Shown here: in pieces, positions 22,924 through 47,288 of the stretch | Position numbering within the stretch: the stretch's first letter is position 1 | Layout of the letters: the number at the start of each line of letters is the position of its first letter | Assembly (NCBI GenBank): GCA_019057815.1 | Contig: JAHLWR010000012.1 | Span: forward strand, 32,001 to 96,000 | DNA length: 64,000 nucleotides | Direction of reading: 5' to 3' | DNA from: Candidatus Heimdallarchaeota archaeon | GTDB taxonomy: Archaea > Asgardarchaeota > Heimdallarchaeia > Heimdallarchaeales > Heimdallarchaeaceae | Notes under the pieces: generated by a model | Seen by the model: the letters and a program-made list of their open reading frames with translations, nothing else | Database searches by the model: none | What the model was told of the DNA's origin: nothing | Translations under genes and position numbers: made by a program

Positions 22924-22982
22924 TAATGTCTTTTTTTCTTGTTTTTTATTTTCAAATTGCTATTTTAATATGAAAGAATTTT

Positions 22983-23249
22983 AGATTCTTGTAGATACTG
23001 CTTATACTTAGAACTTAATTCATAAGAAAAAGGAAATTAAAGAATCATTAAGATGTAGTAATAACCTCAACTTCTATCTGTTCAACATCCTTTGTTAGGG
23101 GTAAAATCTGTTCTGACCCCCTTTCATCAATAGTATAGTCAATATCATCTTCTACATTTCTCATCGAATTATTAATCCAAGAAAGACCTAAAAATAACAA
23201 CCCTAGAAGGGCAGAAAAAGCGAATAGCTATTCCATCTTAGCATATTCA
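22983..23249 (-). pseudogene. Diverged duplicate of the MFS gene 3' end and downstream flank (25604-25871)
   Basis: Reads ME*LFAFSALLGLLFLGLSWINNSMRNVEDDIDYTIDE. Many synonymous changes and one in-frame TAG. Confidence 0.9.
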
Positions 23250-23319: not shown

Positions 23320-24027
23320 TTAAGTCTCTAACAGTTTTATACCTTCAGTAAGTGCTCTTTTAATGAATACATTATCATATTTCATACGTTCTATTTCTTT
23401 AATAGTATATGGAAAGATATCAACAGGTATTGGTAAAATCATAAAGAAATCTTTTAGTTCAGGAATTCGATCAAAGAATCTTTCTTTATCACTATCTTCT
23501 AGAATTATGAGTACATCTGCATCACTATATAAACCATAATCTCCTCTAGCTATTGAACCAAAAAGAATTATTTCTTTAGCTCCCTTTTTTATTTGAATTT
23601 CCTTTGCTATACTTCTTAAATCAGCTATAATGCGTACTCTATTTCTGTAAGCTCTCTCTACAGAACTTAATGATCTCTTCTGCATTTTCAACCGCCTCTT
23701 TCGCTTCTTGTTCCGTAAAGTAATCTTTTGAGCACCAACTTCAAAGCTATTTGGATATCGAGTTGGAATATAGTATTTATCAAGTTTTTTTGCTAAAAAT
23801 ATAATATTATCAGGAATTGTTAAATCAGCCTTTAGAACGCTCAAGGATCTACTTATAGCATGACTCCAACAGTCTATTTTGAAATGAAGACATAAAGCTT
23901 TTATTCCCATTTCACTTGATTGTTGTGCTAGAAAACAAACACCATCAAAGAAGTTGCCTTTTAAACTCCATCTTGCTTGCTCTAGAATATGTTCAGCTTG
24001 AGCAAACCAATCTTTTGATCTATCCAT
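23320..24027 (-). CDS. HEPN-MNT toxin-antitoxin pair fused by a frameshift
   Basis: HEPN motifs FLAQQSSE, SHAI and YIPTRYPN. MNT motif LFGSIARGD-SDAD, with its own ATG at 23685. The native HEPN tail KDYFTEQEAKEAVENAEEIIKF is in another frame and ends at 23639. Confidence 0.85.
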   Translation of the reverse strand: MDRSKDWFAQAEHILEQARWSLKGNFFDGVCFLAQQSSEMGIKALCLHFKIDCWSHAISRSLSVLKADLTIPDNIIFLAKKLDKYYIPTRYPNSFEVGAQKITLRNKKRKRRLKMQKRSLSSVERAYRNRVRIIADLRSIAKEIQIKKGAKEIILFGSIARGDYGLYSDADVLIILEDSDKERFFDRIPELKDFFMILPIPVDIFPYTIKEIERMKYDNVFIKRALTEGIKLLET

Positions 24028-24485: not shown

Positions 24486-25109
24486 TCATTTCGTATGATA
24501 TATCAAAAGCATAATTGCAATTATTACGATATAACAATAGTAGTTAAATAGAAACAGTCTTTGCCAAAGACCTGATCTTTTGAATTTAGGTTTTTTAGTT
24601 CGGAGAAACAAAAAGAAGAAAATGATTCCTGCAATTTGAGTAATTATTGAAATGATGAGCATCCAATTCACCATAGCGGTAACTAGAACAGATGGTAAAA
24701 TGAGTAGAGCTAAATATCCCAACCCACCAAATATTCCATGAATCTTACATGATGTACTTTCTTCATGACCTTTTGGATCTGCGGGATACAGCCCTGATAC
24801 CACACCAGCTCCAATCCCAAAAATCGCTATTAAACTCGCTCCAGCAATACTAATTCCCCTTGATCCCAAGAAGAAGGAATCTAAAGCAAAACCACAACTA
24901 AAAATGATAAAAGAAATCCCCCAAAAAATTCACCAGAATGTGAAAATGCTGGTGAAAGGGCTTTTTTTACAACCAAGCTTGCTCATAGTATCTTCAATAT
25001 GACTATAATTTGGATAAAAAGAACCCAAAATAAAAGTAATTAAGAAGTCTCCTAAACACGCAAGAATACCCAAAGATGCAGCAATTGAAATAAAAATATC
25101 AGAACCCAT
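24486..25109 (-). pseudogene. DUF998 family membrane protein with in-frame TGA
   Basis: Motifs YPNYSHIEDTMSKLG, IHGIFG and GLWQRLF. TGA at 24930-24932 in the context FW*IFW. Confidence 0.75.
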
Positions 25110-25210
25110 TCATGATTTCATTTCTGGTGTTATATTAAAGAGTTTCTTTTTTATGTTTTCAGATATTGAAGTTATATTGATTTCAGATGCTTACATGCTA
25201 ATTTTTCCCC

Positions 25211-25542
25211 ATTTTTCCCACATTTCTGTTAGATTTTTATAGGTAAGTCTAATATAAGTACTGTCTTAAGCCAATGGCTTTAGACAAAGTAGAGTCATCT
25301 GCTTACACCCGGAGCTGGAGTGAGAGCCTAAGGTTCTCAATAACATAGTCTTCAGTAATGAGTCCCGGAGAGGAGATGAACCCTCTCACCTCCGCTAACA
25401 CTGTGTGTTGGAGGTGTAATCCCAGAGCTTGAAGCTCCCCCTACGCTACTGCTTGATGCGATGCGACCTTAAACGTTCTTGGGTTGGGAAGAGTCCTCAA
25501 AATTATTCGTCACTACCCTTAAGTGGGTAAAGTGGGAAAAAT
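25211..25542 (+). ncRNA. Unidentified structured non-coding element (ncRNA or non-autonomous mobile element)
   Basis: About 50% GC, no long ORF, many hairpins with G-U pairs on the + strand, and an 11-bp terminal inverted repeat. Confidence 0.6.
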
Positions 25543-25572
25543 AACTCATGTATAACAATGCATAATGGTCTA

Positions 25573-25586
25573 GTCAACAGATAGTT
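25573..25586. repeat. Truncated GTCAAC repeat copy
   Basis: GTCAACAGATAGTT is identical to the starts of the copies at 13582 and 46419. Confidence 0.6.
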
Positions 25587-25666
25587 TCATTATGAAGAAA
25601 ATCAGATTCCTGTAGATGCCACTTATGTTTAGAACTTAGATCATAAGAAAAAGGGAATTAAAAGTA

Positions 25667-27013
25667 TTATTCAGATGTTGGAATAACCTCAGCTTCTTTC
25701 TTTTCAACATCCTTTGTAGAGGGCAAAATCTGTTCTGACCCGCCTTCATCTATAGTATAATCAATATCATCTTCAACTTTTCTCATCGAAGTATTAATCC
25801 AAAAAAGACCAAGGAATAGCAATCCTAGAAGGGCAGAAAAAGCGAATAAATACTCCATCTTAACATATTCAGCTATGAAACCTGATAATAACATCCCTGC
25901 TGGTGCTGTAAATTGAGCTATAGTTAGTCTAACAGACATAACTCTGCCTAATTTGTCTTTTGGAACTATTGTTTGCCAGATTGTTTGGCTGGATATGTTT
26001 GCAACAGGGTTGGAAACTCCGACAACTAGCATTCCTAAACCCATAAACCAAAAAAGACCATTAGGGGTCAAAGATGCGATTAAGGATCCTATAAACATGA
26101 AAAGAATACCGATTGCTACACCATTTACCTTTTTCTTGAAACCTTTCCATATTGTAAGTAATAACGATCCAGCTATTGTTCCAACGTTTAAGAAAATAAA
26201 GACAAAAGCTAGATTTGTTTCATCCCCTCCATGAGTAGAATAGACAAACAAGTTAATCAGTGTAAACATTGGCATGATAAAGAAGTTTGCAGCTGTGAAT
26301 GAACCTAAGAGTGGTAAAAGACCCTTCTTTTTGCGAATGAATTGAACTCCTTCTTTCATCTCGGATATAAAAGATGTTTTTTCTATTTTTTCTTTTGTCT
26401 GTTTTACAACTTTTGGTATAGTTATGAAAACTAATGGAATAATGGCAGCTCCGAATGTTATTGGCTCGATCAACATAATTAGATGAATGGGTATTGTAGC
26501 GTATAGGAAAGCTGCAGTAACTGGACCAACCACAAAAACAGCACTTATAAAAAGAAATTGAAAGCTGTTCATACGGTTTAGATGCTTTTTTGGTACCATT
26601 ATTGGGATTATTGTTTGAAGAGCTGGTTGCTGGAATGCTTGAAACGCACCTCTAATAGCAATGAAGAATAGCAATAAACCTACACCAACTTTGTCGAATT
26701 TGAAAAGAAATAGAAGAACAACAGTTACAGCAGCTTGCATGAAATCTACAAAACCAATTAAAAATTTCAGATTAAGACGATCTATTAAGACTCCAGCGAT
26801 TGGAGTAAGTAAAACTGTTGGAATAAAACCGATGAACAAAGATAAAGATAATAACATAGGACTTTCAGTTTCGACTGTGATCCACCAAGCTATTACAAAT
26901 TGAATAATACTCGAACCAAAAAGTGAAACTAATTGTCCAGAAAAGAAGAACAAATATCCCTTAAGGTTTGAAGTTTCTTCTGTATGATTATTGGAATTTT
27001 CTAGCATTAACAA
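25667..27013 (-). CDS. MFS transporter (DHA3/macrolide efflux-like)
   Basis: Motifs GQLVSLFGS, AGVLIDRLN and QTIVPKDKLGRV. About 12 TM helices. Confidence 0.9.
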   Translation of the reverse strand: MLMLENSNNHTEETSNLKGYLFFFSGQLVSLFGSSIIQFVIAWWITVETESPMLLSLSLFIGFIPTVLLTPIAGVLIDRLNLKFLIGFVDFMQAAVTVVLLFLFKFDKVGVGLLLFFIAIRGAFQAFQQPALQTIIPIMVPKKHLNRMNSFQFLFISAVFVVGPVTAAFLYATIPIHLIMLIEPITFGAAIIPLVFITIPKVVKQTKEKIEKTSFISEMKEGVQFIRKKKGLLPLLGSFTAANFFIMPMFTLINLFVYSTHGGDETNLAFVFIFLNVGTIAGSLLLTIWKGFKKKVNGVAIGILFMFIGSLIASLTPNGLFWFMGLGMLVVGVSNPVANISSQTIWQTIVPKDKLGRVMSVRLTIAQFTAPAGMLLSGFIAEYVKMEYLFAFSALLGLLFLGLFWINTSMRKVEDDIDYTIDEGGSEQILPSTKDVEKKEAEVIPTSE

Positions 27014-46679: not shown

Positions 46680-47288
46680 ATGAGTGAAAAGAGTATTACT
46701 ATAAAGATGCTTGATTTGGTTAGCGATCCCATCAAGATAGAAATTTGGGATGAAATCCAGCGTGGAGTCAATTTAACAGCAAAAGAATTAAGTAAAAAAC
46801 TTAATCTAAAAAAGACAAATATTTACTATCATCTCAACCAATTAGAAGAGAGCAGATTAATTGTTTCTGAGAACCATATCCTTCCAGGAAAGAATCTTTT
46901 ACAAAAAACGTATAAAATCAATGAAGAAATTTACAGCCCGAAAGAATTTAAGGTTAGAAGGGAGTTATATGAAACCCAAGAGAGAATGAGAGAAGCTTTT
47001 CTCTTTCAGTATTACATAGTTGTGATGCATCTCAATAGGAAAATTTTACAAGTATCTGAAATGACCAATGAAGAAGTTAAGGAATTAATAAAACAGGATA
47101 AACATAGTTATGCTAAAGTTCATTATATTAGAGATAATGATGTAGCTCTTGTTAGAGAGACATTTGATGTGTTGGTTTCCGCAATTACTGAAAAGCATAG
47201 GGAAGATACATCTCCAACCGGAATCTGGGAAGAAATAACACATGCGATGATACTAGGATTATTACCAATGGAGGAGGGCGTGAAATGA
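46680..47288 (+). CDS. ArsR-like wHTH regulator
   Basis: DPIKIEI...TAKELSKKL...IYYHLNQLE. Confidence 0.8.
   Translation: MSEKSITIKMLDLVSDPIKIEIWDEIQRGVNLTAKELSKKLNLKKTNIYYHLNQLEESRLIVSENHILPGKNLLQKTYKINEEIYSPKEFKVRRELYETQERMREAFLFQYYIVVMHLNRKILQVSEMTNEEVKELIKQDKHSYAKVHYIRDNDVALVRETFDVLVSAITEKHREDTSPTGIWEEITHAMILGLLPMEEGVK

What the first reader, a model, noticed from the sequence alone, without database searches (positions are those of the whole stretch)
25211..25542. Unidentified ~330-nt structured RNA-like element with alternative folds
Seen: about 50% GC (counted over 25261-25500) in an AT-rich background, with no long ORF. Terminal IR ATTTTTCCCAC/GTGGGAAAAAT. Hairpins at 25229-25252, 25262-25286, 25321-25339 and 25387-25416, plus GAGCT-tga-AGCTC and TACCC-N6-GGGTA. 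G-U pairs favour the + strand, and a TTTTATA box at ~25235 could drive it. A mutually exclusive long helix is also possible (25303-09 with 25413-19, and 25313-26 with 25383-96). The GAAGCTCCC...GGGA...GTCAC tail loosely recalls IS200/IS605 tnpB right ends and omegaRNA. Inference: either a new ncRNA class or a non-autonomous guide-RNA-bearing element travelling with a TA module.
Basis: partly seen in the sequence, partly recalled or inferred. Interest (0 to 1): 0.78.

Follow-up and report, generated by a model that had tools for sequence, protein, structure and literature searches.

The report
Gene-less TnpB guide-RNA mini-transposon
The structured, GC-rich 330-base island is a 353-base miniature jumping element of a Heimdall (Asgard) archaeon that has lost the TnpB nuclease gene of its 1.75-kb parent and keeps only the two mirror-image ends, the promoter and the folded guide RNA (omegaRNA); elements of this kind are already known.

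Summary
In detail: a GC island (0.515 against about 0.30), no ORF, and a fold z-score of -4.7 on the + strand. It is not a new RNA class.

- **Copies.** It is one of 6 short copies (about 353 nt). The same genome also holds 5 long copies (about 1.75 kb) that carry a 492-aa TnpB.
- **Origin.** The short form is an internal deletion. It fuses the left end, with its conserved TATA box, to the last 66 nt of tnpB plus the 218-nt right end.
- **True limits.** The element runs from 25197 to 25549. It sits 3' of CAT and ends in CAT, and has 27-nt inverted ends.
- **Mobility.** A same-genus genome has empty sites for two of the copies.
- **RNA structure.** The right-end RNA fold is conserved in clades whose TnpB is only 42-46% identical. 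28 of 38 pairs show double-sided changes.
- **Most likely function.** A promoter-driven, stand-alone omegaRNA is loaded in trans by TnpB from the intact long copies and guards its own insertion site. This step is inferred.
- **Not supported.** The "TA module" link fails: the HEPN-MNT gene lies 1.2 kb away and outside the element.
- **Unusual points.** The ends are inverted repeats, RuvC-II has Gly in place of Glu, and no cognate transposase was found.

The scan reached the same reading before on other copies and families in this genome. Verdict: new member of a known kind.

The parts
25194..25196 (+). Target trinucleotide CAT on the left flank (insertion point 3' of it; candidate TAM core)
   Evidence: 15 of 15 distinct insertions of this clade have CAT here, and position -4 is never T. 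Empty sites in G157 keep a single CAT.
25197..25224 (+). Left-end inverted repeat, made of two tandem ATTTTTCCC(C/A) motifs
Evidence: It mirrors the right end. Relatives have a different sequence that is again mirrored.
25229..25252 (+). Left-end hairpin holding the archaeal TATA box TTTTTATAGG (25234-25243). This is the tnpB promoter in long copies; the predicted start is near 25264.
   Evidence: The box is conserved in all short and long copies and in Heimdallarchaeum relatives. The start site is inferred from the usual 25-30 nt spacing between TATA box and start.
25260..25261 (+). Deletion junction: the left end, up to just before the tnpB ATG, is joined to the last 66 coding nt of tnpB
   Evidence: Alignment of short against long copies. 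The same junction is found in MITEs of another genus.
25263..25331 (+). Remnant of the last 22 codons of tnpB plus its stop (TAA at 25329-25331). This is the 5' part of the omegaRNA region.
   Evidence: tblastn matches aa 471-492 at 91% identity. The stop is placed from the long copies.
25261..25549 (+). omegaRNA scaffold (the right end of the parent element)
   Evidence: 85-90% identical to the 3' end of the long TnpB copies. Fold z = -4.7.
25356..25549 (+). Scaffold core with covariation support. Helices: P1 25358-63/25544-49; P1b 25364-67/25533-36; P2 25370-74/25494-98; P3 25381-83/25486-88; P4 25388-93/25410-15 and 25397-01/25405-09; P5 25418-21/25482-85; right-end hairpin 25514-18/25525-29.
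   Evidence: Covariance model R1 recovers distant relatives end to end. 94.8% of cells are paired, 28 of 38 pairs have double-sided changes, and the score is 0.337 against 0.128 for shuffles. A hand table of P1-P3 agrees.
25523..25549 (+). Right-end inverted repeat, ending AACTCAT. The last 6 nt are the 3' strand of helix P1.
   Evidence: the base after CAT varies: G, A, C or T.
25550..25569 (+). Putative guide: the flank transcribed next to the scaffold. It differs at every copy.
   Evidence: Flanks diverge immediately after CAT in all copies. The guide role is inferred from how known omegaRNAs work (PMC10055086, PMC10691335).

Best explanation
Window 25197-25549 is a 353-nt miniature, gene-less derivative (MITE) of a 1.75-kb TnpB-only insertion element of a Heimdallarchaeon.

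Shown:
- An internal deletion removed the tnpB ORF from just before its ATG to 66 nt before its stop.
- The left-end promoter (TATA box at 25234-25243) therefore now sits directly in front of the right-end non-coding RNA.
- That RNA has a conserved, covarying fold whose last helix ends exactly at the element boundary, as in TnpB omegaRNAs.
- The element is, or recently was, mobile. It always lies 3' of CAT.

Inferred:
- The promoter transcribes a stand-alone omegaRNA of about 290 nt that reads into the flank and picks up a guide of about 16-20 nt.
- TnpB made by the three intact long copies (contigs C40, C10, C39) loads it in trans.
- The complex cuts the vacant site (CAT plus the right flank) if the element is lost, so that recombination restores it.

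The enzyme that moves the family is unidentified.
For: **Repeat family**
- 6 short and 5 long copies, plus one right-end fragment.
- Long copies encode a 492-aa protein matching Pfam Cas12f1-like_TNB (48.8 bits, above cut-off) and NCBIfam guided_TnpB (73.7 bits).
- Three long copies are intact and two are frameshifted.
- The deletion junction is mapped.

**Mobility**
- Ends and the CAT target are defined.
- Two copies have empty sites in same-genus genome G157.
- The same MITE form occurs in another genus.

**RNA structure**
- Model R1 finds the right ends of clades with 42-46% TnpB identity over their full length, with ends equal to those defined by hand.
- Covariation is far above the shuffled and slid controls.
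- G-U pairs fit the + strand only.
- Within the gene-less copies alone, paired columns vary less than unpaired ones: 8 of 76 against 43 of 117, Fisher p = 5e-5, and 295 of 300 pair cells are kept.

**Promoter**
- The TATA box is conserved across clades.

**Literature**
- Mobilised stand-alone omegaRNAs work in trans with compatible effectors (PMC10691335).
- PATE elements often encode omegaRNAs used by TnpB made elsewhere (PMC10055086).
Against: - There are no expression data, so the RNA's 5' and 3' ends, its loading and any cleavage are untested.
- The TnpB clade has Gly in place of the RuvC-II Glu. Activity rests on the published inference that such 'rearranged' sites are active.
- The right end also ends in CAT, so avoiding self-targeting needs a TAM longer than CAT. 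Position -4 is A, G or C in the flanks against T in the right end, which is only suggestive.
- The shared deletion junction can be explained by descent alone.
- The covariation alignment was fitted to the model's structure.
- No transposase with matching ends was found.
Confidence: 0.8

Rival explanations
1. It is a purely parasitic MITE. The 290-nt right end is kept only by descent or as a cis site for the unknown transposase, and no functional guide RNA is made from the short copies.
For: All short copies share one deletion junction, which fits a single origin. There are no expression data. The inverted repeats alone could suffice for mobility.
Against: The promoter is retained and placed right at the RNA start. 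Within MITE copies, paired positions are about 3.5 times less variable than unpaired ones and 98% of pairs are kept. Stand-alone omegaRNAs are known to act in trans.
Confidence: 0.13
2. It is a host-domesticated guide RNA. The copy at this locus supplies a guide for a TnpB-based regulatory or defence role and does not serve transposon maintenance.
For: Exapted TnpB systems with long 3' RNAs are described (PMC10691335). The RuvC-II Glu is missing.
Against: The element is multi-copy with insertion polymorphism and intact ends. The guide position is simply the local flank. The Gly substitution is clade-wide in mobile copies.
Confidence: 0.04
3. It is a new stand-alone structured ncRNA class, or a decayed CDS, unrelated to mobile DNA.
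For: No Rfam family matches and the fold is strong.
Against: 11 copies have precise ends. A TnpB-bearing parent exists, empty sites exist in a relative, and only 22 codons of CDS remain.
Confidence: 0.01

Closest known systems
Mobilised stand-alone omegaRNAs of OMEGA systems (Altae-Tran et al. 2021, as summarised in PMC10691335) and PATE-like protein-less IS200/IS605 elements that encode omegaRNAs (Meers et al. 2023, PMC10055086)
   Same: A gene-less, multi-copy mobile unit that keeps the transposon ends and the guide-RNA scaffold. It occurs in the same genome as effector-bearing copies, and TnpB is expected to be supplied in trans.
   Different: The host is an Asgard archaeon. The ends are 27-nt inverted repeats, not asymmetric hairpin ends. 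An archaeal TATA promoter is fused to the RNA. The partner TnpB has a Gly at RuvC-II. No cognate Y1 TnpA was found.
IS1341-type (tnpB-only) members of IS200/IS605 and their archaeal MITEs
   Same: The parent carries tnpB alone, with the omegaRNA overlapping the 3' end of the gene and ending at the right boundary. Insertion is next to a short fixed motif.
   Different: IS200/IS605 elements lack inverted terminal repeats. Here both ends mirror each other, and the mirror co-evolves between clades. The genome's own IS605 has unrelated ends.
IS607 family (serine TnpA plus TnpB)
   Same: A short shared sequence (AT/CAT) at both junctions would fit crossover at a core dinucleotide. IS607 TnpA genes exist in this genome.
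   Different: IS607 has no terminal inverted repeats (PMC6188088 abstract). No serine TnpA lies in or beside any copy, and the ends of the resident IS607 elements are unrelated.
DDE (IS630)-linked TnpB elements
   Same: Symmetrical, inverted ends around a tnpB (PMC10691335).
   Different: No DDE_3 transposase was found in this 95%-complete genome. The junction is CAT, not TA.

Membership tests
TnpB omegaRNA | Encoded at and overlapping the 3' end of tnpB and ending at the right transposon boundary | tested here: met
   In long copies the homologous region starts about 70 nt before the tnpB stop and ends at ...AACTCAT, where the flanks diverge.
TnpB omegaRNA | Conserved secondary structure supported by covariation | tested here: met
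   28 of 38 pairs have double-sided changes. The score is 0.337 against 0.128 for shuffles (0 of 500 reach it) and at most 0.10 for slid controls. The alignment was fitted to the model.
TnpB omegaRNA | Variable guide immediately 3' of the scaffold, matching the vacant site next to a TAM | tested here: inconclusive
   The flank is different at every copy and CAT is invariant 5' of the element. Guide use and the TAM cannot be tested here.
TnpB omegaRNA | Transcribed and bound by a catalytically competent TnpB | not testable with these tools
   Three intact TnpB genes exist. RuvC-I Asp and RuvC-III NADxN are present, and the RuvC-II Glu is replaced by Gly across the clade.
MITE (non-autonomous deletion derivative) | Short, without ORF, sharing both ends with a longer coding element, multi-copy, with insertion polymorphism | tested here: met
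IS200/IS605 (IS1341 group) | No terminal inverted repeats; asymmetric subterminal hairpins recognised by a Y1 TnpA | tested here: not met
   The ends are 27-nt inverted repeats. No Y1 TnpA lies beside any of 44 related loci. The ends of the resident IS605 are unrelated.
IS607 | Serine TnpA in the element; no inverted repeats and no duplication | tested here: not met
   No TnpA in the element. Inverted repeats are present. The resident IS607 TnpA genes belong to elements with other ends.
IS630/DDE-linked TnpB | DDE transposase partner and a TA duplication | tested here: not met
   PF13358 was not found in the genome. The junction is CAT.
Any Rfam 15 family | Score at or above the family's gathering threshold | tested here: not met
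   0 matches on the window. The best sub-threshold hits in the region have E above 2.

The most novel reading that the evidence does not exclude
This Asgard-restricted TnpB clade has RuvC-II Gly, co-evolving inverted ends and an invariant CAT junction. It may move by a route not yet described for TnpB elements: an unrecognised transposase acting in trans, or TnpB-dependent mobility. If so, the promoter-plus-omegaRNA MITEs would be its minimal mobile unit. No cognate transposase was seen in this genome, beside 44 related loci, or as larger units bracketed by the inverted repeats in two closed Heimdallarchaeum genomes.
Probability: 0.15. Interest if true: 0.75.

Novelty: new member of a known kind. 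Interest (0 to 1): 0.38.

Why it matters
- It explains an orphan "structured RNA" as a guide-RNA-only mini-transposon.
- It gives a covariance model and exact boundaries for an Asgard TnpB/omegaRNA family.
- It supplies a ready test set: three intact TnpB genes, six natural stand-alone guides and a CAT-adjacent target. These can be used to ask whether RuvC-II-rearranged archaeal TnpBs are active and use guides in trans.
- The inverted ends and the missing transposase are the only features that go beyond what is described.

Tried and rejected
- **Rfam:** searched at gathering and permissive thresholds; nothing found.
- **tRNA/tmRNA:** none.
- **SRP or RNase P RNA:** considered from the size; excluded by Rfam and by the copy number.
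- **Y1 TnpA as mobiliser:** two genes are present, but they sit in an IS605 with unrelated ends.
- **Serine recombinases:** six found. Three are true IS607 TnpA, but their elements have different ends. The other three are stand-alone.
- **Cas1 as transposase:** the C18 gene lies beside a CRISPR array, and no TnpB or matching inverted repeat was found within 8-9 kb of any of the three Cas1 genes.
- **IS630-type DDE:** none found.
- **Loose end-motif scan of the genome:** mostly noise, with no extra unit carrying the same ends.
- **Plain MAFFT alignment across clades:** it mis-registered the helices, so a covariance model was used.
- **cmsearch with filters off:** it gave noisier local hits and was not used for counting.
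- **K-turn reading of the conserved AUGA/GAG internal loop:** considered and dropped, because it does not fit the consensus.
- **Orthologous empty site for the window copy itself:** not recovered, because the G157 contigs break there.

Full report
**Observation.** The region is a GC island: 0.515 in 25300-25499 against about 0.28-0.33 on either side. It has no ORF above 33 aa. It has a 14-nt terminal inverted repeat. The + strand folds far better than shuffles (-112.6 kcal/mol, z = -4.72), while the - strand gives z = -2.63. Rfam 15 gives nothing at gathering threshold on the whole window and only chance-level hits on the region. There are no tRNAs.

**It is a repeat with a coding parent.**
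- The window is G000:C36:32001-96000. The 332 nt recur in full on contigs C38, C9, C24, C1 and C37, at 92-97% identity.
- On C30, C40, C10, C26 and C39, positions 51-332 match at 85-89%, and positions 3-53 match about 1.45 kb further upstream. C27 holds a right-end fragment.
- The long units (1741-1753 nt) carry one gene of 492 aa. It is open in C40, C10 and C39 and frameshifted in C30 and C26.
- The gene product matches Pfam Cas12f1-like_TNB above cut-off. It matches NCBIfam guided_TnpB over nearly its whole length, although below that model's cut-off. Cas12f and TnpB structures are the best PDB matches.
- Aligning short against long copies shows a clean internal deletion. The short form keeps the left end up to just before the tnpB ATG, and resumes 66 nt before the tnpB stop. 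tblastn sees aa 471-492 at window 25263-25328.

**True limits and mobility.**
It starts on the left at the CAT at 25194-25196 (the element's first base is 25197) and ends on the right at AACTCAT, 25543-25549.
- The base after the right CAT varies among relatives (G, A, C or T), so the element ends at CAT.
- In 15 distinct insertions the left flank always ends in CAT, and position -4 is never T.
- The same-genus genome G157 has uninterrupted sites for the C38 and C1 copies, each with a single CAT. So the element moved recently.
- This result does not separate a 3-bp duplication from insertion 3' of CAT by an element that itself ends in CAT.
- The same short form, with the same junction, occurs in another genus (G154, G151, G204).
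- The two ends mirror each other over about 27 nt, each built from two ATTTTTCCC-like motifs.

**Organism and family.**
- Named homologues of the TnpB are all Asgard: Heimdallarchaeota at 42-90% identity and Thorarchaeota at about 38%.
- 53 of 201 sampled genomes of the phylum have a match.
- In Heimdallarchaeum (two closed genomes, TnpB about 45% identical) the elements again start at (C)ATG and end in ATCAT.
- They again have inverted ends, but with a different sequence (TTTTTTACGTAA), so the two ends co-evolve.
- In those closed genomes, convergent pairs of exact matches to the 12-nt core lie 1.83-1.88 kb apart, the size of the TnpB-only unit.
- The TATA box TTTTTATAGG upstream of tnpB is conserved in all clades.

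**The RNA.**
- RNAalifold on 24 close copies predicted a long-range helix between AUGAGU (25358-63) and the last six bases ACUCAU (25544-49).
- In Heimdallarchaeum this pair reads AUGAUU/AAUCAU.
- Two further helices, P2 and P3, flank a conserved AUGA/GAG internal loop and change on both sides between clades:

| Helix | This clade | g3 clade | Heimdallarchaeum |
|---|---|---|---|
| P2 | GAGGA/UCCUC | CGAGA/UCUCG, CAAGA/UCUUG | UCGUG/UGCGA |
| P3 | CCC/GGG | UCC/GGA | GUC/GAC |

- A covariance model was built from 17 close copies of the 194-nt core with eight helices. It recovered the right ends of the distant clades over the full model, and the ends were identical to those I had set by hand.
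- On that 31-sequence alignment, 94.8% of cells pair (shuffles 81.9%). 28 of 38 pairs have double-sided changes (shuffles 13.7). The covariation score is 0.337 (shuffles 0.128, 0 of 500 reach it; slid controls at most 0.10).
- The caveat is that the alignment is fitted to the model.
- Frequent G-U pairs fit the + strand.
- The local hairpin 25388-25415 has compensatory changes at all six pairs of its outer stem.
- Among the eight gene-less copies alone, paired columns vary in 8 of 76 cases against 43 of 117 for unpaired columns (p = 5e-5), and 295 of 300 pair cells hold.

**Mechanism.**
- Shown: the architecture (ends, promoter, RNA scaffold ending at the boundary), the parent TnpB, mobility and the CAT target.
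- Inferred: the TATA box at 25234-25243 starts transcription near 25264, which is at the deletion junction.
- The short element would then make only the omegaRNA plus a flank-derived guide (25550 onward).
- TnpB from the intact long copies would use this RNA in trans to cut the vacant CAT-plus-flank site and favour restoration of the element.
- This follows the homing model of Meers et al. (PMC10055086). It also follows the report that mobilised stand-alone omegaRNAs work in trans (PMC10691335).

**Open points.**
- The whole TnpB clade has Gly where RuvC-II Glu should be. RuvC-I Asp and RuvC-III NADxN are intact, and the genome's canonical IS605 TnpB does have the Glu.
- This matches the published "RuvC-II rearranged" type, which is predicted to be active through an alternative Glu.
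- The mobilising enzyme was not found. No TnpA lies beside any of 44 related loci.
- The genome's two Y1 TnpA genes belong to an IS605 with unrelated ends.
- Three genuine IS607 TnpA genes exist, but in elements with other ends.
- No IS630-type DDE was found, and none of the three Cas1 genes has a TnpB or a matching inverted repeat nearby; the C18 gene lies beside a CRISPR array.
- Inverted ends exclude ordinary IS200/IS605 and IS607 membership. In the literature they are reported for DDE-linked TnpBs.

**TA module.** The only candidate is a HEPN-nucleotidyltransferase fusion at 23320-24027 on the - strand. It lies 1.2 kb outside the element, with a DUF998 gene in between. It is not repeated with the other copies.

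**Comparison and verdict.**
- The element works like the known stand-alone or PATE-type omegaRNA elements and is a MITE of an IS1341-like TnpB-only unit.
- It fails the no-inverted-repeat criterion of IS200/IS605 and IS607.
- Earlier notes of this scan on other copies and families in this genome reached the same reading. I re-tested the CAT target, the ends, the parentage and the cited papers myself.
- It is a new member of a known kind. The one unexplained aspect is how the family moves.

Noticed in passing
window 24486-25109 (- strand): The DUF998 membrane-protein gene next to the element reads through in one frame except for a single in-frame TGA at 24930-24932. It may be a pseudogene, a sequencing error or a recoding site.
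   Followed up: partly
window 22963-23249 and 25585-25871: A direct repeat of about 288 nt (84-86% identical). The right copy covers the 3' end of the MFS transporter gene. The pair brackets the HEPN-MNT gene, the DUF998 gene and the MITE. Model R1 gave a chance-level hit inside the left copy.
   Followed up: partly
window 23320-24027 (- strand): A single 235-aa protein fuses a HEPN domain to an MNT-type nucleotidyltransferase domain, a toxin-antitoxin-like pair in one chain.
   Followed up: no
L057 (G000:C9:56170-56526) against L078 (G157:C7:3896-4312): At the C9 copy the MITE replaces 417 nt of coding-looking sequence that G157 still has. The deletion runs between two CATG sites, so the MITE is associated with a gene deletion.
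   Followed up: partly
L008:1712-3190 and relatives (P0001-P0116): The whole Asgard TnpB clade has Gly in place of the RuvC-II catalytic Glu (VVVGFP / VSIGK / VAIGR). Asp in RuvC-I and NADxN in RuvC-III are kept.
   Followed up: partly
G000:C27:145985-148548; G000:C9:67903-68538; G000:C18:45-701: Three IS607-family serine TnpA genes. One is followed by a 652-aa TnpB-like ORF that Pfam does not recognise. Two sit at contig ends and share a left end that starts GGGGTGACCAAC.
   Followed up: partly
P0119 (736 aa, Heimdallarchaeota): A relative of this TnpB is fused to MarR/TrmB-type HTH domains. This may be an exapted regulatory TnpB.
   Followed up: no
G068:C1 and G015:C1 (e.g. G068:C1:499114-499129): The perfect 16-nt palindrome TTTTTTACGTAAAAAA, built from the Heimdallarchaeum end motif, occurs about 7 times in G068 and once in G015, away from full elements.
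   Followed up: no
G000:C19:25557-25574; G000:C37:4489-4506; window 47227-47244: Isolated sequences that look like right ends of sister families (for example TGGGAAAAATAATTCATG). They hint at further related elements in the genome.
   Followed up: no
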